5,379 nt of DNA from a virus (Duplodnaviria; Heunggongvirae; Uroviricota; Caudoviricetes): the IMG/VR virus record IMGVR_UViG_2537562119_000008, one strand, 5' to 3'. Numbering within the stretch: the stretch's first letter is position 1; every line of letters starts with the position of its first letter. The position numbers and the translations under genes were made by a program. Below, piece after piece: positions 1-5,379 of the stretch. A model generated the notes under the pieces. It worked only from the letters and a program-made list of their open reading frames with translations, searched no databases and was not told the DNA's origin.

Positions 1-90
1 GCAAGGCTATACCAAAAAATCAGTGTAGGTTCAGAAAACGATGCACCATACAATCATCAATAATTTCAAATTGTCCATTGTGCATAAATC

Positions 91-133
91 ATAAAGAAAA
101 CCGCAGCACGTCGTATGCAAGAACGTGCTGCGG
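91..133 (-). terminator. Predicted intrinsic terminator-like hairpin distal to tI
   Basis: Perfect 10-bp inverted repeat CCGCAGCACG (101-110) / CGTGCTGCGG (124-133) with a 13-nt loop. On the minus strand it is followed by TTTTCTTTAT (reverse complement of 91-100). No T-tract follows it on the plus strand. Confidence 0.35.
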
Positions 134-292
134 TTGGCTGGTGAACTTTCGATAGTGCGAGTATTGAATGATTTCCAGCTGTTGCCGATTTTACTATGTT
201 TTCAGTAGAACACTTAGACAAAACTGAGGCACACAAATCTTTGCACTGGATTGCAAGGCTTTGTGCTTCTCTGGAGTGCGACATGTTTGATA

Positions 293-334
293 ACAAAAAA
301 TTAGCGCAAGAAGACAAAAATCACCTTGCGCTAA
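293..334 (-). terminator. tI / sib-region terminator hairpin downstream of int (lambda-like)
   Basis: Inverted repeat TTAGCGCAAG (301-310) / CTTGCGCTAA (325-334). On the minus strand it is followed by TTTTTTGT (reverse complement of 293-300). The minus-strand sequence GCGCAAGGTGATTTTTGTCTTCTTGCGCTAATTTTTT matches the lambda tI/sib hairpin as I remember it. Position is about 190 bp beyond the att core, as in lambda. Confidence 0.7.
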
Positions 335-575
335 TGCTCTGTCTCAGGTCACTAATACTATCTAAGTAGTTGATTCATAGTGACTGGATATGTTGTGTTT
401 TGTAGCATTATGTAGTCTATTTTTTAGACTAAAGATATTGTAACACATTGATATTAATGGTTTTTAATGTTTCGCGTTCAGCTTTTTTATACTAAGTTGG
501 CATTATAAAAAAGCATTGCTTATCAATTTGTTGCAACGAACAGGTCACTATCAGTCAAAATAAAATCATTATTTG
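328..575. other. attP: attP phage attachment site (lambda-type POP'), core at 481-495
   Basis: The 15-bp common core GCTTTTTTATACTAA is at 481-495. The P' arm (496-575, GTTGGCATTATAAAAAAGCATTGCTTATCAATTTGTTGCAACGAACAGGTCACTATCAGTCAAAATAAAATCATTATTTGATTTC) matches the lambda P' arm as I remember it. The P arm carries lambda-like sequence (AGGTCACTAATAC..., CATAGTGACTGGATATGTTGTGTTTT). The site abuts the 3' end of int. Phage-type sequence on both sides of the core indicates attP rather than a prophage attL/attR junction. Confidence 0.88.
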
Positions 576-1639
576 ATTTCAATTTTGTCCCACTCCCTGC
601 CTCTGTCATCACGATACTGTGATGCCATGGTGTCCGACTTATGCCCGAGAAGATGTTGAGCAAACTTATCGCTTATCTGCTTCTCATAGAGTCTTGCAGA
701 CAAACTGCGCAACTCGTGAAAGGTAGGCGGATCCCCTTCGAAGGAAAGACCTGATGCTTTTCGTGCGCGCATAAAATACCTTGATACTGTGCCGGATGAA
801 AGCGGTTCGCGACGAGTAGATGCAATTATGGTTTCTCCGCCAAGAATCTCTTTGCATTTATCAAGTGTTTCCTTCATTGATATTCCGAGAGCATCAACAT
901 GCAATACTGTTGGGATGGCAATTTTTACGCCTGTTTTGCTTTGCTCGACATAAAGATATCCATCTACGATATCAGACCACTTCATTTCGCATAAATCACC
1001 AACTCGTTGCCCGGTAACAACAGCCAGTTCCATTGCAAGTCTGAGCCAACATGGTGATGATTCTGCTGCTTGATAAATTTTCAGGTATTCGTCAGCCGTA
1101 AGTCTTGATCTCCTTACCTCTGATTTTGCTGCGCGAGTGGCAGCGACAGGGTTTGTTGTTATATGGCCTTCAGCTATTGCCTCTCGGAATGCATCGCTCA
1201 GTGTTGATCTGATTAACTTGGCTGACGCCGCCTTGCCCTCGTCTATGTATCCATTGAGCATTGCCGCAATTTCTTTTGTGGTGATGTCTTCAAGTGGAGC
1301 ATCAGGCAGACCCCTCCTTATTGCTTTAATTTTGCTCATGTAATTTATGAGTGTCTTCTGCTTGATTCCTCTGCTGGCCAGGATTTTTTCGTAGCGATAA
1401 AGCCATGAATGTAACGTAACGGAATTATCACTGTTGATTCTCGCTGTCAGAGGCTTGTGTTTGTGTCCTGAAAATAACTCAATGTTGGCCTGTATAGCTT
1501 CAGTGATTGCGATTCGCCTGTCTCTGCCTAATCCAAACTCTTTACCCGTCCTTGGGTCCCTGTAGCAGTAATATCCATTGTTTCTTATATAAAGGTTAGG
1601 GGGTAAATCCCGGCGCTCATGACTTCGCCTTCTTCCCAT
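569..1639 (-). CDS. int: Tyrosine recombinase, phage lambda-type integrase Int (356 aa)
   Basis: Full 356-aa ORF with ATG start. The translation (MGRRRSHERRDLPPNLYIRNNGYYCYRDPRTGKEFGLGRDRR ... HLLGHKSDTMASQYRDDRGREWDKIEIK) matches lambda Int as I remember it, including the C-terminal catalytic tyrosine motif (MASQY). The 3' end abuts the attP P' arm and the 5' end overlaps xis by 23 nt, as in lambda. Confidence 0.97.
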   Translation of the reverse strand: MGRRRSHERRDLPPNLYIRNNGYYCYRDPRTGKEFGLGRDRRIAITEAIQANIELFSGHKHKPLTARINSDNSVTLHSWLYRYEKILASRGIKQKTLINYMSKIKAIRRGLPDAPLEDITTKEIAAMLNGYIDEGKAASAKLIRSTLSDAFREAIAEGHITTNPVAATRAAKSEVRRSRLTADEYLKIYQAAESSPCWLRLAMELAVVTGQRVGDLCEMKWSDIVDGYLYVEQSKTGVKIAIPTVLHVDALGISMKETLDKCKEILGGETIIASTRREPLSSGTVSRYFMRARKASGLSFEGDPPTFHELRSLSARLYEKQISDKFAQHLLGHKSDTMASQYRDDRGREWDKIEIK

Positions 1640-1835
1640 TTCTGATCCTCTTCAAAAGGCTACCTGTTACTGGTCGATTTAAGTCAACCTTTACCGCTGA
1701 TTCGTGGAACAGATACTCTCTTCCATCCTTAACCGGAGGAGGGAATATCCTGCACTCGCGTACCCATCGACGAACTGTTTCAAGGCTTCTTGGGCGTCGC
1801 TGGCGTGCGTTCCACTCCTGAAGTGTCAAGTACAT
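1617..1835 (-). CDS. xis: Excisionase Xis (72 aa)
   Basis: The 72-aa translation MYLTLQEWNARQRRPRSLETVRRWVRECRIFPPPVKDGREYLFHESAVKVDLNRPVTGSLLKRIRNGKKAKS matches lambda Xis as I remember it. It sits immediately upstream of int and overlaps it, as in lambda. Confidence 0.95.
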   Translation of the reverse strand: MYLTLQEWNARQRRPRSLETVRRWVRECRIFPPPVKDGREYLFHESAVKVDLNRPVTGSLLKRIRNGKKAKS

Positions 1836-1865
1836 CGCAAAGTCTCCGCAATTACACGCAAGAAA
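1820..1865 (-). promoter_or_regulatory. PI promoter with cII-binding TTGC-N6-TTGC repeat, overlapping the xis start
   Basis: The minus strand reads CTTGCGTGTAATTGCGGAGACTTTGCGATGTACTTGACAC. The TTGC tetrads are the reverse complement of GCAA at 1858-1861 and 1848-1851, 6 nt apart. This is the classic cII-activated promoter architecture, and the lambda PI region lies in this position relative to the xis ATG (1835). Exact -10 and transcription start are not resolved here. Confidence 0.6.
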
Positions 1866-1887
1866 AAACCGCCATCAGGCGGCTTGG
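1862..1887 (-). terminator. Predicted intrinsic terminator overlapping the stop codon of the 55-aa ORF, just upstream of PI
   Basis: Minus strand reads AAGCCGCCTGATGGCGGTTTTTTCTT: a GC-rich stem CCGCC/GGCGG with a 4-nt loop, followed by six T. Confidence 0.45.
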
Positions 1888-2042
1888 TGTTCTTTCAGTT
1901 CTTCAATTCGAATATTGGTTACGTCTGCATGTGCTATCTGCGCCCATATCATCCAGTGGTTATAACAGTCGTTGATGTTCTCTGCTTCGATAACCCTGTT
2001 GAATGGCTCTCCATTCCATTCACCTGTGACTCGGAAGTGCAT
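1875..2042 (-). CDS. Small hypothetical protein (55 aa) between the accessory block and xis
   Basis: Not in the supplied ORF track (under 60 aa). ATG at 2042-2040 preceded by GGAG with a 7-nt spacer (minus strand ATGGAGATGATAAATG). Translation MHFRVTGEWNGEPFNRVIEAENINDCYNHWMIWAQIAHADVTNIRIEELKEHQAA. Its size (168 bp) and its 39-bp spacing from xis match the small unnamed ORF annotated next to xis in lambda, as I recall that annotation. Confidence 0.55.
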   Translation of the reverse strand: MHFRVTGEWNGEPFNRVIEAENINDCYNHWMIWAQIAHADVTNIRIEELKEHQAA

Positions 2043-2052
2043 TTATCATCTC

Positions 2053-2080
2053 CATAAAACAAAACTCGCCGTAGCGAGTT
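2053..2080 (-). terminator. Predicted intrinsic terminator-like hairpin between the 143-aa ORF and the 55-aa ORF
   Basis: 7-bp inverted repeat AACTCGC (2063-2069) / GCGAGTT (2074-2080) with a 4-nt loop. On the minus strand it is followed by TTGTTTTAT, immediately before the RBS of the 55-aa ORF. Confidence 0.35.
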
Positions 2081-2129
2081 CAGATATAATTTCCACCAAA
2101 GGCAGTAGTTGCTTGATGCTAAGAATTAT

Positions 2130-2561
2130 TCAATATCTATTCCTGTAATATCTTTTATCTTTTATCTTTTTCCTTGCAAAGCCTTTTGCTAGTGATTTTG
2201 AAACACTCATAAGTGTACTAATTCCCTCATCCTTAAAGTTTGTTTTTATAGCTTGCCAGACATCCTTTTGACGTAAGTCAGCAATAAAATCATGCCCTCT
2301 TGCTGTCAACCTCAGTGGTACTTCGATCCAACTATATCCAACACCTTCCCCTAACGCTTTGGACAATATATGACCGAACCCAGGTTTTCCATCAACCCTG
2401 ACTATTAATTCGTAGTCACATAATAATCGCATATGGAAAATAAAATCTTGGTCATATCTATTAAAGCCATTATCCTCTAGTTCACTAAGCATCGTGTCAG
2501 GGCCACGAGTTTTTTCGAATGCGATAAGTAGATCTTTTAGATATTGCTGGTCTAATTTCAT
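2130..2561 (-). CDS. Hypothetical protein (143 aa), AT-rich accessory gene with a basic C-terminal tail
   Basis: ORF with ATG start and a strong RBS (GGAGG, 5-nt spacer). Hand counts on two 60-nt samples gave roughly 27-37% G+C, against roughly 50% for a sample in int. The C-terminus is lysine/arginine-rich (KGFARKKIKDKRYYRNRY). I recognise no family with confidence; the N-terminal pattern weakly recalls small phage DUF-type proteins. Confidence 0.6.
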   Translation of the reverse strand: MKLDQQYLKDLLIAFEKTRGPDTMLSELEDNGFNRYDQDFIFHMRLLCDYELIVRVDGKPGFGHILSKALGEGVGYSWIEVPLRLTARGHDFIADLRQKDVWQAIKTNFKDEGISTLMSVSKSLAKGFARKKIKDKRYYRNRY

Positions 2562-2589
2562 TGCCGCCTCCGTGACATGTCACAGAGAT

Positions 2590-2928
2590 TTATATCATTA
2601 ATTTTGTTTCGTGCCAGCCTTTGGTCACCCAGCATTGTGAGTCACCATTACACGGGCATGAATTAACAGGAACTCTCTCGCCGCACTTACCGCACCGTTT
2701 TCTGCTGATCGATTTTATACGCCAGCGCACACGTGCATCATCCTGGCGGCTCAGTAACGCGATGTACTCACCAAACTCGCAAGGCGCACGCCTGAAGCGA
2801 CGCGTGGCACAGTTACGCTCCAGCATTTCAATTTCCTGAGCATCAAGTACAAGCTCCAGCTTACGCATACCGGATGATGCTTGCTTGGCTCTCTGATCGG
2901 CTTTGTGCTCTGTTGCTGATTTAGCCAT
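2590..2928 (-). CDS. Cys-rich hypothetical protein (112 aa), possible zinc-ribbon / Ea8.5-like protein
   Basis: ATG start with RBS AGGAAAAG about 8 nt upstream. One hand-counted 60-nt sample gave about 55% G+C, typical of the lambda-like flanks. The C-terminal half has a CxxC...CxC...C cluster (RKRCGKCGERVPVNSCPCNGDSQC). It lies 28 nt upstream of the 143-aa ORF. It is in the approximate position of lambda ea8.5 and of similar size if translation starts at the internal Met21 (92 aa). Homology to Ea8.5 is not verified. Confidence 0.55.
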   Translation of the reverse strand: MAKSATEHKADQRAKQASSGMRKLELVLDAQEIEMLERNCATRRFRRAPCEFGEYIALLSRQDDARVRWRIKSISRKRCGKCGERVPVNSCPCNGDSQCWVTKGWHETKLMI

Positions 2929-2969
2929 TCTGCTTTTCCTGCATCAGGAGAAAGACAATCATGGCGGCG

Positions 2970-3071
2970 CGGATACTTCCGGTATCTTTTTACGCGATAT
3001 TCCCCTTCAATGGCACATACAAGAAGAGAGCCATCAACAGGAGTGATTGAGGAATCGACAACCAGCAACGC
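2970..3071 (-). pseudogene. Remnant of an S24-family peptidase gene (UmuD / LexA / CI C-terminal-domain-like fragment)
   Basis: The minus-strand frame just after a TAA stop encodes LLVVDSSITPVDGSLLVCAIEGEYRVKRYRKYP. This aligns with UmuD [33 protein letters not shown] and with the LexA motif VARIDDEVTVKRL. No upstream coding sequence for the catalytic Ser (GDSM) motif was found in any frame, and similarity is lost after about 33 codons. The supplied 105-aa ORF (2751-3068) starts at TTG and otherwise looks like read-on into the 112-aa gene region. Confidence 0.5.
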
Positions 3072-3121
3072 TTAATTATCTATAGTGTCGTATTTGCTTC
3101 ATAAAATATGGCGAATAACAC

Positions 3122-3159
3122 AAAGCCCGCAGCAGCTCATTGTGCGGGCTTTTCTTATA
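3122..3159. terminator. Hairpin terminator downstream of the 204-aa secreted-protein gene
   Basis: 10-bp inverted repeat AAAGCCCGCA (3122-3131) / TGCGGGCTTT (3143-3152) with an 11-nt loop. The plus strand follows it with TTTTCTT; the minus strand follows it with a weaker TTTGTGTTATT. It lies in an AT-rich intergenic region 3' of the 204-aa gene. Confidence 0.45.
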
Positions 3160-3221
3160 CCTACTTCCTAGAGATAATTCTATGGAGGCATTAAATCAAT
3201 ACTGTCATTGGTAATATCATA

Positions 3222-3836
3222 TTATCTAAAAGTCTTTCCACTTTTAACATCTAGGTATATTCTGTTCGACAACGTCATTCCTCCGCAATATGTGAAATAG
3301 ATGTTTTCACCCTTATTGCTTGATGCCATCCACCCTCCGATTTCCTTAAAATCGCTTTCCGTGCAGACCCCTTCATTTATTAACTTCCTAGCTGCCGAAG
3401 AAAACTCTTTTTTGTATATACGGTAGTCATCAGATCCTTTGATTAAAGTATCATCTCCGCTCGCATTTTCAGCAGGATCTGATGGCCTTTCACTGCTAAG
3501 ATCACTAAGTTTAACCCATTCTGAAAACTTGCCATTAACGATTCCATTTTTTCTTGTGCAGGATTTATTACCTTCTTTAATATATTCGCTTTCCCCTCCA
3601 ACACATGAGGCTGAATATGGCTCAGTTATACGAACCCATTCACCTTTTTTTTCTAGAAAATCTACGCCTTCCCTGAAAAATAGTTTCCCAGCCACTCCAC
3701 ATTTACTTGAAGGGCAGGTATGTCTTTCCGTTCGATCAACAACAACCCATAGTTTTGATTCATTTTTTGCCATTGCCGATGGTATTTGAGATGAGACAAT
3801 TAACGTAAGCCCTAAAATTAGTATTGATTTTTTCAT
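3222..3836 (-). CDS. Secreted (Sec signal peptide) cysteine-containing protein of unknown function (204 aa), AT-rich moron
   Basis: ATG with RBS AAGGAA and a 6-nt spacer. The N-terminus MKKSILILGLTLIVSSQIPSAMA|KNE has a basic n-region, a hydrophobic core and an AxA-type cleavage site, with no lipobox Cys. The mature part has 6 Cys. Hand counts on two 60-nt samples gave roughly 33-38% G+C. Motifs GEWVRI and SEWVKL weakly recall SH3b-like folds. Confidence 0.7.
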   Translation of the reverse strand: MKKSILILGLTLIVSSQIPSAMAKNESKLWVVVDRTERHTCPSSKCGVAGKLFFREGVDFLEKKGEWVRITEPYSASCVGGESEYIKEGNKSCTRKNGIVNGKFSEWVKLSDLSSERPSDPAENASGDDTLIKGSDDYRIYKKEFSSAARKLINEGVCTESDFKEIGGWMASSNKGENIYFTYCGGMTLSNRIYLDVKSGKTFR

Positions 3837-4134
3837 TGTAATTTCCTTTTACTTTTTACAAAGCGTTTAATCATGGCTGATTATCTCTAAGTGTAGTAAC
3901 AGCCTTGTGCGAAACATGTTACCAAATCGCCATTTCAGTGTATCCGCAGTTAGGCTGCCACTTCAAGGATTCCTAATTACATGGTACGTAAGCGTAAAAT
4001 CCCGTTGGTTGGCGGGTAATAACTCTGATCAAATCTCCCTTGTCTTTTGCTCTTACGTATGCAGCTCTTGTGTATTCAACCCAGGCCTCCAGTTCAGCAA
4101 TACGCTTACTTCCATCCGAGATAACACCTTCTAC

Positions 4135-4386
4135 TCACGCTGCTCGTTGAGTTTTGATTTTTGCTGTCTCCAGCTCAACACGCAGTTTCCCCACCGTTAG
4201 CGCAATATCCTCGTTCTCCTGGTCGCGGCGTTTGATGTATTGCTGGTTTCTTTCCCGTTCATCCAGCAGTGTCAGCACAATCGATGGTGTTACCAGCTCA
4301 TGGAAAAGGTCCGCGTCAAATCCCCAGTTGTCAGGCATTGCCTGCTCTGCCGCTTCACGCAGTGCCTGAGAGTGAATTACGCTCAC
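4135..4386 (-). CDS. ea22: Ea22-like protein, N-terminal part (83 aa) ending at an in-frame TGA; likely a disrupted gene
   Basis: GTG start overlapping the stop of the upstream TraR-like gene (GTGA), at the position where lambda ea22 starts. The N-terminus MSVIHSQALREAAEQAMPDNWGFDADLFHELVTP... resembles the conserved N-terminus of Ea22-family proteins as I remember them. The frame continues open for 53 more codons after the TGA (see findings). Confidence 0.5.
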   Translation of the reverse strand: MSVIHSQALREAAEQAMPDNWGFDADLFHELVTPSIVLTLLDERERNQQYIKRRDQENEDIALTVGKLRVELETAKIKTQRAA

Positions 4387-4604
4387 TTCGAACCTCTCTG
4401 TTTACTGATAAGCTCCAGATCTTCCTGGCAACTTGCACAAGTCCGACAACCCTGAACGGCCAGGCGTCTTAGCTCATCTATGGGATCGCCACACTCACAA
4501 CAATGAGTGGCAGATACAGCCTGGTGGTTCAGGCGGCGCATTTTTATTGCTGTGTTGCGCTGTAATTCTTCAATTTCTGATGCTGAATCAATGATGTCTG
4601 CCAT
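4383..4604 (-). CDS. TraR/DksA-family C4 zinc-finger protein (lambda Orf73-like), 73 aa
   Basis: The translation has the C-x2-C-x17-C-x2-C zinc finger (CECGDPIDELRRLAVQGCRTCASC). This aligns with the F-plasmid TraR motif CEACGNPIPEARRKIFPGVTLCVEC. Length is 73 aa, and the stop overlaps the ea22-like start. Confidence 0.8.
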   Translation of the reverse strand: MADIIDSASEIEELQRNTAIKMRRLNHQAVSATHCCECGDPIDELRRLAVQGCRTCASCQEDLELISKQRGSK

Positions 4605-4656
4605 CTTCCATTAATCCCTGAATTGTTGGTTAATACGCTTGGGGGTAAATGCGAGC

Positions 4657-4680
4657 AATAAAAAAGGAGCCTGTAGCTCC
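4657..4680 (-). terminator. Weak intrinsic terminator-like hairpin between the 93-aa ORF and the TraR-like gene
   Basis: Stem GGAGC (4666-4670) / GCTCC (4676-4680) with a 5-nt loop. On the minus strand it is followed by TTTTTTATT (reverse complement of 4657-4665). The stem is short, so termination would be weak or partial. Confidence 0.3.
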
Positions 4681-4702
4681 CTGATAATTTTGCTTTTCAT
4701 GT

Positions 4703-4984
4703 TCATCGTTCCTTAAAGACGCCGTTTAACATGCCGATTGCCAGGCTTAAATGAGTCGGTGTGAATCCCATCAGCGTTACCGTTTCGCGGTGCTTCTTCA
4801 GTACGCTACGGCAAATGTCATCGACGTTTTTATCCGGAAACTGCTGTCTGGCTTTTTTGATTTCAGAATTAGCCTGACGGGCAATGCTGCGAAGGGCGTT
4901 TTCTTGCTGAGGTGTCATTGAACAAGCCCCATGTCGGCAAGCATAAGCACACAGAATATGAAGCCCGCTGCCAGAAAAATGCAT
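4703..4984 (-). CDS. Hypothetical protein (93 aa; alternative start at 4918 gives 71 aa)
   Basis: ORF with ATG at 4984. An internal ATG at 4918 overlaps the stop of a possible 27-aa upstream ORF (ATGA). No recognisable domain. It occupies roughly the position of lambda orf61 but does not match its size. Confidence 0.5.
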   Translation of the reverse strand: MHFSGSGLHILCAYACRHGACSMTPQQENALRSIARQANSEIKKARQQFPDKNVDDICRSVLKKHRETVTLMGFTPTHLSLAIGMLNGVFKER

Positions 4985-4998
4985 TCAGTGGTTGTCAT
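4915..4998 (-). CDS. Possible small hydrophobic peptide (27 aa), translationally coupled between orf63 and the downstream ORF
   Basis: ATG at 4998-4996 overlaps the orf63 stop (ATGA). Translation MTTTECIFLAAGFIFCVLMLADMGLVQ has a single hydrophobic, transmembrane-like core. Its TGA at 4917-4915 overlaps the ATG at 4918 (ATGA). Not in the ORF track (under 60 aa). It is mutually exclusive with the first 22 codons of the 93-aa reading. Confidence 0.25.
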   Translation of the reverse strand: MTTTECIFLAAGFIFCVLMLADMGLVQ

Positions 4999-5186
4999 AC
5001 CTGGTCTCTCTCATCTGCTTCTGCTTTCGCCACCATCATTTCCAGCTTTTGTGAAAGGGATGCGGCTAACGTATGAAATTCTTCGTCTGTTTCTACTGGT
5101 ATTGGCACAAACCTGACTCCAATTTGAGCGAGGCTATGTGCCATCTCGATACACGTTCTTAACTCAACAGGAGATGCTTTGTGCAT
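4995..5186 (-). CDS. orf63: Small early-left protein, lambda orf63-like (63 aa)
   Basis: 63-aa ORF with ATG start. Its size (192 bp), its 28-nt overlap with the upstream orf60a-like ORF and its distance from the exo stop all reproduce the lambda orf60a/orf63 arrangement as I remember it. The protein sequence itself was not verified against lambda. Confidence 0.6.
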   Translation of the reverse strand: MHKASPVELRTCIEMAHSLAQIGVRFVPIPVETDEEFHTLAASLSQKLEMMVAKAEADERDQV

Positions 5187-5341
5187 ACAGCCCCCCGTTT
5201 ATTATTTATCTCCTCAGCCAGCCGCTGTGCTTTCAGGGGATTTCTGATAACAGAAAGGCCGGGAAATACCCAGCCTCGCTTTGTAACGGAGTAGACGAAA
5301 GTGATCGCACCTACCCGGATATTATCGTGAGGATGCTTCAT
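5159..5341 (-). CDS. orf60a: Small early-left protein, lambda orf60a-like (60 aa from the ATG overlapping the exo stop)
   Basis: The ATG at 5341-5339 overlaps the exo TGA (5340-5338) as ATGA, giving a 183-bp ORF as in lambda orf60a. The ORF track starts 2 codons earlier, at the ATG at 5347. Translation MKHPHDNIRVGAITFVYSVTKRGWVFPGLSVIRNPLKAQRLAEEINNKRGAVCTKHLLLS. Confidence 0.6.
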   Translation of the reverse strand: MKHPHDNIRVGAITFVYSVTKRGWVFPGLSVIRNPLKAQRLAEEINNKRGAVCTKHLLLS

Positions 5342-5379
5342 CGCCATTGCTCCCCAAATACAAAACCAATTTCAGCCAG
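5338..5379 (-). CDS. exo: Exonuclease (lambda Exo / Red-alpha), 3' end only; gene truncated by the window edge
   Basis: The minus-strand frame entering from the right edge reads LAEIGFVFGEQWR then stop. This matches the C-terminus of lambda exonuclease (...DEALAEIGFVFGEQWR) as I remember it, and the stop overlaps the orf60a start as in lambda. Confidence 0.8.
   Translation of the reverse strand: MAEIGFVFGEQWR

What the first reader, a model, noticed from the sequence alone, without database searches (positions are those of the whole stretch)
2130..2928. Two-gene cassette: Cys-rich 112-aa zinc-ribbon-like protein plus AT-rich 143-aa protein, in the ea8.5 position
Two tightly linked minus-strand ORFs sit 28 nt apart, with a strong GGAGG RBS for the second. 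The first (2590-2928) has normal G+C and a C-terminal CxxC...CxC...C cluster; it may be an Ea8.5-like homeodomain/zinc-finger protein, whose function is unknown even in lambda. The second (2130-2561) is strongly AT-rich with a basic tail and no recognisable domain; it looks like a separately acquired insertion between the ea8.5-like gene and the small ORF next to xis. With the left-hand lambda offset, its stop codon falls within 1 bp of where my remembered coordinates put the lambda ea8.5 stop. This region of lambdoid phages is a known hotspot for non-essential genes acting on host physiology or defence, so the pair is a candidate host-takeover or anti-defence module.
Basis: partly seen in the sequence, partly recalled or inferred. 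Interest (0 to 1): 0.6.

Follow-up and report, generated by a model that had tools for sequence, protein, structure and literature searches.

The report
Transplanted phage regulator cassette with operator
The two genes are real, but they are not Ea8.5-like or an anti-defence pair: they are two predicted DNA-binding regulators (a ribbon-helix-helix/zinc protein with a conserved 12-bp palindrome next to it, and a winged-helix DUF2513 protein) moved as one unit from epsilon15-like phages into a lambda-like phage, where the first gene seems to be decaying.

The parts
2590..2928 (-). Gene for a 112-aa protein: N-terminal YbfE-like ribbon-helix-helix domain (aa ~8-69) plus a C-terminal four-Cys module (C79, C82, C91/C93, C99). 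Family of phiV10 p55 / epsilon15 gp49 / TL-2011b gp20 (phrog_536).
   Evidence: ORF. phrog_536 E 7e-48 and no Pfam hit. hhalign of family profile A4 against E. coli YbfE: prob 93%, E 2.8e-7. Cys pattern CxxC-x7-10-C-x7-9-C across 57 diverse members. The window allele differs at near-invariant positions: R8H, Y50C, I60S.
2572..2583 (.). Perfect 12-bp palindrome GTGACATGTCAC, 6 nt after the 112-aa stop codon and abutting the Shine-Dalgarno of the next gene. Predicted operator of the 112-aa protein.
   Evidence: Single copy in the window. Identical in Cronobacter although the coding flanks have diverged. Present in 74 of 80 IMG/VR loci, 43 of them without DUF2513. GTGAC-N2-GTCAC, exact or with one mismatch, occurs next to or near family genes in 11 of 12 lineages down to ~25-30% identity. 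Nine exact copies in 55.8 kb of family loci against 1 in 330 kb of control loci.
2567..2571 (-). GGAGG Shine-Dalgarno of the DUF2513 gene, 5 nt before its ATG.
   Evidence: Read directly from the sequence. GGAG is conserved in Cronobacter, Enterobacter and Serratia copies.
2589..2597 (-). TGATATAAA, an extended -10-like motif overlapping the 112-aa stop codon, 5 nt upstream of the palindrome. It is a candidate internal promoter for DUF2513 and a consensus match only.
   Evidence: Read from the sequence. TATAAA or TATAGT lies at the same place in the Cronobacter, Enterobacter, Yersinia and Serratia copies. The promoter scan, which requires a -35, did not call it.
2130..2561 (-). Gene for a 143-aa DUF2513 winged-helix protein (MarR/PadR-like fold with a long C-terminal helix). 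This allele has a frameshifted last 8 residues.
2150..2170 (-). (AAAAGAT)x3 tandem repeat. The aligned relatives have x2. The extra unit shifts the frame, replacing ...ITGIDIE* with ...KRYYRNRY*.
   Evidence: DNA alignment with Chlobot and two E. coli prophages. The x3 allele also occurs in IMG/VR loci L064 and L072; the x2 junction was found in 17 of the 32 IMG/VR copies with the DUF2513 gene, and 30 of the 32 encode 142 aa.
2062..2081 (-). Intrinsic-terminator-like hairpin (GAACTCGC-tacg-GCGAGTTT + TGTTTT), 49 nt after the DUF2513 stop and inside the lambda-homologous DNA.
   Evidence: Terminator scan. It lies left of the mosaic junction at 2090/2091.
2091..4087 (.). Mosaic segment that replaces lambda ea8.5 and the 3' part of ea22. 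It holds the cassette (2091-2986), a umuD/humD remnant and a 204-aa secreted-protein moron.
   Evidence: blastn of the window against lambda: homology at 463-2090 (98.7%) and 4088-5379 (96%). The cassette segment 2597-2986 is 90% identical to TL-2011b, including the 3' end of its ninX-like gene.
2961..3068 (-). Remnant of a umuD/humD-like (S24 peptidase) gene just upstream of the cassette. The 105-aa ORF 2751-3068, annotated 'UmuD-like' in phage Chlobot, overlaps the 112-aa gene out of frame and is an annotation artefact.
   Evidence: PGAP 'DNA repair protein' pseudogene in E. coli AMSHJX01. 87% DNA matches to plasmid humD genes. Chlobot annotation.

Best explanation
The two ORFs form one regulatory cassette that originated in epsilon15-like (Uetakevirus-type) temperate phages and was recombined into the PL-distal 'ea' region of a lambda-like phage, in place of ea8.5 and part of ea22.

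Gene 1 encodes a sequence-specific DNA-binding protein. It has a YbfE-like ribbon-helix-helix domain fused to a four-Cys, probably zinc-binding, module. Its likely target is the palindrome GTGAC-N2-GTCAC that travels with the gene, placed right after its stop codon.

In the window this palindrome lies between a -10-like TATAAA and the Shine-Dalgarno of gene 2. A dimer bound there would therefore control transcription or translation entering gene 2. For an RHH protein, repression is the most likely direction. In the native epsilon15-like setting the same site guards the entry from the early operon into the terS late operon.

Gene 2 encodes a DUF2513 winged-helix protein, a second DNA-binding regulator whose target is unknown. 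It is the better-kept gene of the pair in lambda-like prophages.

In this lambda-like lineage gene 1 appears to be under relaxed selection, so here it may be weakened or non-functional.

Shown: homology, folds, the conserved cis element and its co-occurrence with gene 1, the mosaic history, and the decay signals. Inferred: that gene 1 binds the palindrome, the direction of regulation, and any role of DUF2513.
For: Gene 1 family and domains:
- phrog_536.
- 86-88% identity to the phiV10/TL-2011b proteins.
- hhalign against YbfE gives prob 93%, and the family HMM hits YbfE at E 5e-5.
- Four conserved Cys.
- Strong purifying selection across genera, dN/dS 0.05.

Palindrome:
- Perfectly conserved between E. 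coli and Cronobacter copies whose proteins are only ~60% identical.
- Present after the stop codon in 43 epsilon15-like loci that lack DUF2513.
- Present in relatives down to ~30% identity.
- The half-sites are invariant while the central 2 nt vary, which is the pattern expected for protein-DNA recognition rather than an RNA stem.
- 2-3 copies per phiV10/TL-2011b genome against 0.03-0.05 expected. Those genomes have no DUF2513.

Cassette unity:
- The same pair and spacer occur in Cronobacter and Yersinia.
- DUF2513 copies in Serratia and Enterobacter keep the 3' stub of gene 1 plus the palindrome.

Gene 2:
- Pfam DUF2513.
- Confident wHTH model with MarR/PadR-like matches.

Mosaic origin.

Decay of gene 1 in lambda-like copies:
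- Nonsense codons in 17 of 33.
- dN/dS ~1 within the lineage, from 7 nonsynonymous and 2 synonymous changes.
- R8H, Y50C and I60S at near-invariant positions.
Against: - No experiment links the protein to the palindrome. The association is purely comparative.
- The AF2 monomer model of gene 1 is poor (pLDDT 59), so neither the RHH fold nor the zinc site is seen structurally.
- In phiV10 and TL-2011b the extra copies of the palindrome sit right beside intrinsic terminators rather than obvious promoters. This fits a terminator-related or insulator role at least as well as classical repression.
- One divergent family member (L158) has no such site within 3.9 kb, and one (L152) has it inside the gene.
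- The -10-like element is only a consensus match, and the promoter scan found no full sigma-70 promoter on this strand.
- The counts behind the relaxed-selection claim are small, and the 16 codon-40 nonsense alleles probably stem from one mutation.
- DUF2513 has no consistent neighbour in 48 species, so nothing indicates what it regulates.
Confidence: 0.55

Rival explanations
1. Q-position late regulator, now a fossil. In epsilon15-like phages the 112-aa protein would be the missing late-gene switch (activator or antiterminator), acting at the palindrome in front of a short leader and terminator that precede terS. In the lambda-like window, which has its own Q, it would be a functionless passenger, and only DUF2513 would be maintained.
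For: - In phiV10 and TL-2011b the gene is the last one of the rightward early operon (cro-like, replication, accessory genes), directly before terS. No Q-like gene is annotated.
- In TL-2011b the order is gene, palindrome, 8-codon mini-ORF, strong terminator, terS.
- In other relatives the sites precede holin or terS genes (L151), or a conserved promoter-like element and then the late genes (L147).
- In lambda-like copies there are nonsense alleles and dN/dS ~1.
Against: - No Pfam hit to a Q or other antiterminator family, and a poor structural model.
- Two of the three phiV10 sites lie at the ends of operons, next to terminators and between convergent genes. That is not where an activator site is expected.
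- The candidate promoter around the palindrome is a weak consensus match read by eye.
- No expression data.
Confidence: 0.25
2. The palindrome acts as an RNA element rather than a protein-binding DNA site. It would form a hairpin that hides the DUF2513 Shine-Dalgarno (translational control or coupling), or act as a processing or stability signal at 3' ends.
For: In the window the RNA folds into a 9-bp hairpin (UCUCUGUGA/UCACGGAGG) that includes GGAGG. The energy is -10.8 kcal/mol with z = -2.3. Copies in phiV10 and TL-2011b lie next to terminator hairpins.
Against: - The extension that sequesters the SD is not conserved in Cronobacter, Enterobacter or epsilon15-like copies.
- The core alone is a 4-5 bp stem.
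- Across lineages the arms never show compensatory change, while the centre varies.
- No Rfam match.
Confidence: 0.1
3. The palindrome is the operator of DUF2513 (autoregulation) or of a host factor, and the 112-aa protein acts elsewhere.
For: - Winged-helix dimers typically bind palindromes at their own promoters.
- Serratia and Enterobacter DUF2513 genes keep the palindrome without an intact gene 1.
- Another DUF2513 subfamily has a different palindrome over a -10-like GATAAT upstream.
Against: - phiV10 and TL-2011b carry 2-3 copies of the palindrome but no DUF2513 homologue.
- 43 IMG/VR loci have the palindrome with gene 1 and without DUF2513.
- Distant gene-1 relatives from other hosts keep it.
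- 46 DUF2513-only control loci contain one exact copy in 330 kb.
Confidence: 0.08
4. One reading: an Ea8.5-like zinc-finger protein plus an independently inserted gene, forming a host-takeover, anti-defence or toxin-antitoxin-like module.
For: The ea/b region of lambdoid phages is a known accessory-gene hotspot (general knowledge). The pair sits exactly where ea8.5 lies in lambda. RHH proteins are common antitoxins (general knowledge).
Against: - No Ea8.5 similarity.
- No PADLOC hit for either protein.
- The partner is a winged-helix protein, not a toxin-like fold.
- The pair is co-inherited rather than assembled here.
- Gene 1 is freely lost by nonsense mutation while gene 2 stays, and gene 2 is freely lost in E. 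coli epsilon15-like phages. Neither would be expected for an addictive pair.
Confidence: 0.05

Closest known systems
phiV10 p55 / epsilon15 gp49 / TL-2011b gp20 (PHROG 536, annotated 'transcriptional regulator'; uncharacterised)
   Same: Same protein family, 86-88% identical over all 112 residues. Same Cys pattern, and the same palindrome immediately after the stop codon.
   Different: In those phages the gene is the last early gene in front of terS. Here it lies in the PL-distal ea region of a lambda-like phage and is followed by DUF2513. The window allele carries R8H, Y50C and I60S at near-invariant positions, and sister alleles are nonsense mutants.
E. coli YbfE (LexA-regulated ribbon-helix-helix protein) and the CopG/Arc/MetJ RHH superfamily
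   Same: A basic N-terminal arm, a beta-strand and two helices align with YbfE residues 37-93 (hhalign prob 93%; NCBIfam PRK11675 E 0.007). A short palindromic candidate site fits the way RHH dimers read DNA (established for Arc, MetJ and CopG).
   Different: YbfE has no C-terminal four-Cys module and is a chromosomal SOS gene of unknown function. No individual family member reaches a Pfam RHH model convincingly (best E 0.013-0.07).
DUF2513 (PF10711) and MarR/PadR-type winged-helix regulators
   Different: No sequence-level hit to the MarR or PadR families. DUF2513 has no described function (one incidental mention in the searchable literature). This allele has a frameshifted C-terminus.
Lambda Ea8.5
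   Same: Same map position between ea22 and the small ORF next to xis. Both are small Cys-containing proteins of the PL operon.
   Different: No detectable sequence or profile similarity. Lambda homology ends at 2090, so the locus is a replacement, not a diverged ea8.5.
Phage late-gene switches with zinc modules (lambda Q; P2 Ogr / P4 Delta)
   Same: A small phage protein with a Cys4 module, encoded just upstream of the late operon in its native phages, with a DNA site and a terminator between it and the late genes. This is a resemblance in layout only; the comparison with Q and Ogr rests on my own knowledge.
   Different: No Pfam match to a Q or Ogr family. The site differs in sequence and geometry: Ogr-type promoters use TGT-N12-ACA near -55 (from my own knowledge). 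The extra sites lie at operon ends.
DksA/TraR C4 zinc-finger proteins
   Same: The best, but non-significant, PDB sequence matches of the family profile are YbiI and TraR (E ~0.1), aligned over aa 49-109. hhalign against F TraR gives prob 50%.
   Different: The Cys spacing is CxxC-x7-10-C-x7-9-C, not CxxC-x17-CxxC. The aligned N-terminal part overlaps the much better supported RHH assignment. The window's own TraR-like gene (4383-4604) scores only 6%.

Membership tests
Lambda Ea8.5 family | Detectable sequence or profile homology to lambda Ea8.5 (93 aa) | tested here: not met
   BLASTP finds no alignment with E <= 100. hhalign of the 57-member profile against Ea8.5 gives prob 0.27%. The 143-aa protein also shows none.
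Lambda Ea8.5 family | Position between ea22 and the orf next to xis in a lambda-like PL operon | tested here: met
   Flanking lambda homology lies at 463-2090 and 4088-5379, and the cassette lies between. This is positional only.
PHROG 536 / phiV10 p55 family | Full-length profile match | tested here: met
   phrog_536 E 7.3e-48 over residues 1-111 of 112. 394 homologues, with 86-88% identity to the phiV10/TL-2011b proteins.
Ribbon-helix-helix (CopG/Arc/MetJ superfamily; YbfE-like) | Beta-strand, helix, helix motif detectable by profile comparison with a recognised RHH protein | tested here: met
   hhalign of A4 against E. coli YbfE (annotated RHH domain protein) gives prob 93.3%, E 2.8e-7, aa 8-69. 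The family HMM hits YbfE at E 5.4e-5. Hits to the Pfam RHH models themselves are only weak.
Ribbon-helix-helix (CopG/Arc/MetJ superfamily; YbfE-like) | Dimer that inserts a two-stranded beta-ribbon into the major groove of a (pseudo)palindromic operator | not testable with these tools
   Only a monomer AF2 run was possible (pLDDT 59, strand not formed). A conserved palindrome co-inherited with the gene is indirect support.
Zinc ribbon / Cys4 zinc-binding module | Four conserved metal ligands in two knuckles | tested here: inconclusive
   C79 and C82 are invariant, C99 is present in 56 of 57 members, and a third Cys lies 7-10 residues after C82 in nearly all. There is no confident structure and no Pfam zinc-ribbon hit for the window protein, and metal content is unknown. 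C50 and H106 are not conserved.
DksA/TraR C4 zinc finger (PF01258) | CxxC-x17-CxxC finger following a coiled coil or helix with an acidic tip | tested here: not met
   The spacing differs. The window protein has no PF01258 hit, and PF01258 is not among the 25 families listed for the 57 members scanned (14 further families were not shown). The PDB profile matches are non-significant (E 0.11-0.14), and hhalign gives prob 50%.
DUF2513 (PF10711) | Score above the Pfam gathering threshold over the whole domain | tested here: met
   42.5 bits against a cut-off of 29.6, covering profile positions 1-100 of 100. All but one of the 90 homologues carry a precomputed PF10711 hit.
MarR / PadR families of winged-helix regulators | Sequence membership (Pfam MarR or PadR) and a dimeric wHTH fold | tested here: inconclusive
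Known anti-phage defence systems (PADLOC-DB v2) | Match to any defence-system protein model | tested here: not met
   No family at E <= 1 for either protein or for the two neighbouring proteins.
Type II toxin-antitoxin (RHH antitoxin + toxin) | Obligate pairing of the antitoxin with a toxin-fold partner | tested here: not met
   The partner is a wHTH protein. Gene 1 occurs without DUF2513 in 43 of 80 loci, and DUF2513 occurs without gene 1 in 46 of 48 species loci.
Lambda Q-type / late-gene regulators | Gene immediately upstream of the late operon, with its DNA site and a terminator in between | tested here: inconclusive
   Met in the relatives phiV10 and TL-2011b but not in this window, where the gene lies in the PL-distal region. 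There is no Pfam hit to Q families, and no functional data.

The most novel reading that the evidence does not exclude
The 112-aa family is a previously undescribed class of phage transcription-unit switch. It would be an RHH-zinc protein encoded in the 'Q position' of epsilon15-like podophages, recognising GTGAC-N2-GTCAC sites placed beside intrinsic terminators: at the early/late boundary before terS, after terL, and at the end of the late or ant operons. From there it would control read-through (antitermination or insulation) rather than initiation. The window would then hold a transplanted copy whose only remaining target is the DUF2513 gene.
Probability: 0.2. Interest if true: 0.65.

Novelty: new variant of a known kind. 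Interest (0 to 1): 0.4.

Why it matters
The late-gene control of epsilon15-like (Uetakevirus) phages, including the O157 typing and diagnostic phage phiV10, is not described in the literature I could search. This work supplies a concrete candidate regulator, a precise 12-bp candidate operator and a map of its sites, which makes the question directly testable by EMSA, reporter fusions and a p55 knockout. It also gives DUF2513, a widespread domain of unknown function found in Proteobacteria, Acidobacteria, Nitrospirota and other phyla, a fold (winged helix) and a defined regulatory context. For the lambda-like window itself the result is sobering. The cassette is a mosaic passenger present in 141 of 5426 complete E. 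coli genomes. Its first gene is often inactivated, and nothing points to defence or anti-defence.

Tried and rejected
- **Ea8.5 homology.** BLASTP and profile comparison were both negative.
- **Structure of the 112-aa protein.** The AF2 model from a 15-sequence alignment reached only pLDDT 59, and Foldseek against the PDB gave meaningless hits. No structural claim is made for it.
- **DksA/TraR relationship of the C-terminal half.** The top PDB sequence hits are non-significant and the Cys spacing does not fit. It is kept only as a weak lead.
- **Defence or anti-defence.** PADLOC gave no hits.
- **A fixed partner for DUF2513.** The downstream neighbours in 48 species are heterogeneous (TerB x4, terS x3, MauJ x3, DUF58/VWA x3), so there is no conserved operon partner.
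- **Literature.** 'DUF2513' gave one irrelevant paper, the palindrome sequences gave none, and 'YbfE' returned only materials-science papers. The vB_EcoP_ZX5 paper concerns other regulators.
- **Rfam.** No match anywhere in the window.
- **Chlobot annotation.** I first took the split annotation ('UmuD-like' 105 aa plus 'transcriptional regulator' 46 aa) as a sign of a frameshift. The DNA is 100% identical to the window over 2500-3100, so it is only a different ORF call.
- **CRP or LexA site.** The palindrome does not fit either consensus. This check was by eye against consensus sequences from my own knowledge.
- **The search for related loci with the broad alignment A4** failed because no stretch was conserved enough. 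A1 was used instead and returned only close relatives.
Full report
**1. The observation**

The window is a lambda-like int-xis-ea-exo region.
- int is at 569-1639(-), xis at 1617-1835(-), and a 55-aa ORF at 1875-2042(-).
- Then come the two ORFs of the finding, a 204-aa ORF, an Ea22-like fragment, a TraR/DksA-like gene, and DUF1382 and DUF1317 genes.
- Window 293-5379 is 99.3% identical to Escherichia phage Chlobot. The same arrangement occurs as a prophage next to ybhC in E. coli.

The ORFs 2590-2928(-) and 2130-2561(-) are as described.
- The spacer is 28 nt, and GGAGG (2571-2567) lies 5 nt before the ATG.
- G+C is 0.504 and 0.363, against 0.434 for the window.
- Homology to lambda covers 463-2090 and 4088-5379. 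With that offset the lambda ea8.5 stop would fall at 2131 and the ORF ends at 2130. The positional remark is therefore correct, but it is a coincidence, because homology already ends at 2090.

**2. The 112-aa protein is not Ea8.5-like**

BLASTP against lambda Ea8.5 finds nothing, and a 57-member family profile aligns to it with probability 0.3%. The protein instead matches PHROG 536 ('transcriptional regulator', E 7e-48) and has no Pfam family.
- At the DNA level, 2597-2986 is 90% identical to phages TL-2011b and phiV10, where the gene is gp20 / p55 (similar to epsilon15 gp49).
- There are 394 homologues, mostly 112 aa and from Enterobacteriaceae. An all-against-all profile search finds 176 cluster representatives.
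- Among close relatives C40, C79, C82, C91, C93, C99 and H106 are invariant.
- Across 57 diverse members only a four-Cys pattern survives, CxxC-x7-10-C-x7-9-C. C40 is present in 37 of 57, H106 in 8 of 57, and C50 is unique to the window.
- The N-terminal half (aa 8-69) aligns with the E. coli ribbon-helix-helix protein YbfE at 93% probability (E 2.8e-7). The family HMM finds YbfE on its own, and NCBIfam had already hinted at this.
- A weaker resemblance of aa 49-109 to TraR/YbiI is non-significant and does not fit the Cys spacing.
- The AF2 monomer model is poor (pLDDT 59) and its fold search was meaningless.

I therefore read the protein as an RHH DNA-binding domain fused to a Cys4 module.

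**3. The 143-aa protein has a domain**

It is DUF2513 (PF10711, 42.5 bits against a cut-off of 29.6) and PHROG 585.
- The AF2 model is confident (pLDDT 86.9). It is a winged helix-turn-helix followed by two short helices and a long C-terminal helix.
- Relatives are 142 aa and end ...KKIKDITGIDIE. The window ends ...KKIKDKRYYRNRY.
- The cause is a third copy of a 7-bp unit, (AAAAGAT)x3 at 2150-2170, where Chlobot and the two E. coli prophages aligned have two copies.
- The x3 allele is also in IMG/VR loci L064 and L072. The x2 junction was found in 17 of the 32 IMG/VR copies that carry the gene, and 30 of the 32 encode the normal 142-aa protein.
- The 'basic tail' is therefore a slippage frameshift of the last seven codons, not a feature of the family.

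**4. The pair is one cassette, not two acquisitions**

- In Cronobacter epsilon15-like prophages a 112-aa homologue (60% identical) is followed after 27 nt by a DUF2513 gene (58% identical), then a terminator, terS and terL.
- Yersinia frederiksenii has the same pair.
- In Serratia and Enterobacter mori the DUF2513 gene is preceded by about 30 nt that still encode the last residues of the 112-aa protein (GWHETKL*), although the rest of that gene is gone.
- In E. coli phages of the phiV10/TL-2011b type the 112-aa gene is followed by the same spacer, a start codon in the same context (GATTATG), an 8-codon mini-ORF and the terminator. DUF2513 thus occupies exactly the slot between the spacer and the terminator. 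I infer, with moderate confidence, that those phages lost DUF2513 by deletion.
- DUF2513 itself is widespread: 48 species loci from Proteobacteria to Acidobacteria, Nitrospirota and Planctomycetota. Only one of these has gene 1 adjacent, and there is no constant neighbour.
- It is rare in sequenced phage isolates, appearing in 3 of 50,697 records.
- In the window the cassette spans about 2091-2986. On its left it carries 58 nt of the 3' end of a ninX-like gene, as in TL-2011b, joined to a umuD/humD remnant.

**5. A conserved palindrome travels with gene 1**

The spacer holds a perfect 12-bp palindrome, GTGACATGTCAC (2572-2583).
- It is identical in the Cronobacter copies, although the flanking codons have diverged to saturation (dS > 2).
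- It follows the stop codon in 74 of 80 IMG/VR loci, 43 of which have no DUF2513.
- Distant relatives keep GTGAC-N2-GTCAC:
  - P0213 (50% identity): CGTGACATGTCACG at the stop.
  - P0296 (~30%): GTGACAGGTCAC at +14.
  - P0287: overlapping the stop.
  - P0261: two exact copies, one 12 nt before terS and one upstream of the holin gene.
  - P0273: two exact copies 23 bp apart.
  - P0316: one copy inside the gene.
  - P0229, Yersinia and P0339: one-mismatch versions.
  - P0310: none, but a different palindrome at the same place.
- Exact copies number 9 in 55.8 kb of family loci against 1 in 330 kb of DUF2513-only loci.
- phiV10 has two further exact copies, at 2262 just after the terL terminator and at 19493 just before the late-operon terminator. 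TL-2011b has one after ant, before the same terminator. About 0.04 are expected per genome.
- Neither phage has a DUF2513 homologue. Chlobot has only the cassette's own copy.
- The arms are invariant, the centre varies and there are no compensatory changes. This points to recognition of DNA by a dimeric protein, and the protein that always accompanies the site is the RHH-zinc protein.
- An RNA hairpin that hides the SD can be drawn in the window (-10.8 kcal/mol, z -2.3), but its extension is not conserved.

**6. How it most likely works**

- Shown: two predicted DNA-binding proteins, a cis element tied to the first, a cassette layout, and the native position at the early/late boundary of epsilon15-like phages.
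- Inferred: the 112-aa protein binds the palindrome as a dimer. In the window the site lies 5 nt downstream of a -10-like TGATATAAA (2597-2589) and abuts the SD. A bound protein would therefore gate transcription or translation entering DUF2513.
- TATAAA or TATAGT is kept at this place in all DUF2513-linked copies. It remains only a consensus match, and the scan found no full promoter.
- A terminator-like hairpin follows DUF2513 at 2081-2062.
- The position of the extra phiV10/TL-2011b sites beside terminators keeps open a read-through or insulator mechanism, and a Q-like late-switch role in the native phages.
- What DUF2513 regulates is unknown.

**7. State of the genes in the lambda-like lineage**

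- Of 33 lambda-like IMG/VR copies, 16 have a stop at codon 40 and one a stop at codon 79 of gene 1. DUF2513 is open in all 32 copies that reach it.
- dN/dS for gene 1 is 0.05 between phiV10 and Cronobacter, 0.25 between the window and phiV10, and ~1 (7 nonsynonymous, 2 synonymous) between the window and its nonsense-bearing sister allele.
- The window protein has H, C and S where 54, 49 and 47 of 57 family members have R8, Y50 and I60.
- The counts are small and the codon-40 stop is probably a single event. Even so, the direction is consistent: gene 1 is under relaxed constraint here.
- DUF2513 within the lineage gives 0.56-0.68 on 8-9 nonsynonymous against 3-4 synonymous changes, which is not informative.
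- Three loci (L097-L099) have lost the 3' end of gene 1 together with DUF2513, and one E. coli strain has IS1 inserted at the palindrome.

**8. Verdict**

The Ea8.5, separate-insertion and anti-defence readings are not supported.
- Both proteins belong to existing but uncharacterised families, so nothing here is categorically new.
- The useful new element is the regulator-operator pairing and its distribution, which makes the control of epsilon15-like phages and the role of DUF2513 testable.
- The cassette (at least 80% of window 2050-3100) is found in 141 of 5426 complete E. coli genomes.
- Interest is moderate at 0.4.

Noticed in passing
window 3222-3836 (-), terminator about 3125-3150: AT-rich (G+C 0.38) 204-aa ORF with an N-terminal signal peptide (MKKSILILGLTLIVSSQIPSAMA). 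It matches phrog_8310 at E 1.8e-136, has only weak SH3_3 and lipoprotein-signal hits, and is followed by its own terminator-like hairpin. It looks like a secreted-protein moron inside the same mosaic segment.
   Followed up: partly
window 2961-3068 (-) and ORF 2751-3068 (-): Remnant of a umuD/humD-like S24 peptidase gene, about 87% identical to humD of ~100-kb E. coli plasmids. In phage Chlobot it is annotated as a 105-aa 'UmuD-like protein' that runs out of frame across the 112-aa gene, which is itself annotated only as a 46-aa fragment. The DNA is identical to the window, so this is a gene-calling artefact.
   Followed up: yes
window 4135-4386 (-): The 83-aa Ead/Ea22-like ORF is only the N-terminal part of ea22. 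The right-hand mosaic junction with lambda (4087/4088) lies inside the gene, and PGAP marks it as frameshifted/incomplete in an E. coli prophage.
   Followed up: partly
L157 (TL-2011b) about 11560-11625; L012 about 5440-5505: Between the terminator and terS of epsilon15-like phages there is a second conserved inverted repeat, ATTACCA-N3-TGGTAAT. In TL-2011b it appears as two direct GGTA(A)CTATTACCAC units. It may be a late-promoter operator or a packaging signal.
   Followed up: no
L144 about 2950-3010; L146 about 2990-3010; L147 about 2985-3040: A conserved non-coding element lies 70-100 nt downstream of the palindrome in three distant relatives. It has a good sigma-70-like promoter (TTGACG-18-TATAGT in L147) with a GGCCCTTTGG spacer, followed by AACGTGGAGTTGTTGCGTT, ahead of the late genes. 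It may be the regulated late promoter or leader.
   Followed up: no
L156 (phiV10) 2262-2273 and 19493-19504; L157 (TL-2011b) 32282-32293: Extra exact copies of GTGACATGTCAC lie directly beside intrinsic terminators. In two cases the unit palindrome + AGGCCGCTTTCGCGGCCT is shared between different operon ends (the late operon in phiV10, ant in TL-2011b), as if it were a portable module.
   Followed up: partly
L006 (E. coli FORC_031) about 4506-5270: An IS1 is inserted exactly at the palindrome, just upstream of GGAGGCGGCAATG. It removes gene 1 and everything beyond it, leaving an intact DUF2513 gene.
   Followed up: partly
L023, L028, L029, L031, L032 upstream of position 4001: A second DUF2513 subfamily (about 50% identical) has its own conserved upstream region, with a different palindrome (GGCAYTCA·TGAGTGCC) overlapping a -10-like GATAAT. 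This suggests that DUF2513 genes are often separately regulated units.
   Followed up: no
window 1-292: The left end of the window (1-292) does not align with Chlobot, apart from a 91% match at 101-194. The b-region or attachment side therefore differs from the closest sequenced phage.
   Followed up: no
L161 43-1195 and 1757-2302: A distant relative of the 112-aa gene lies downstream of Tad2-like and Sequestin-domain genes (anti-defence families, according to the precomputed Pfam labels). This shows that the family sits in accessory-gene regions that can also hold anti-defence genes.
   Followed up: no
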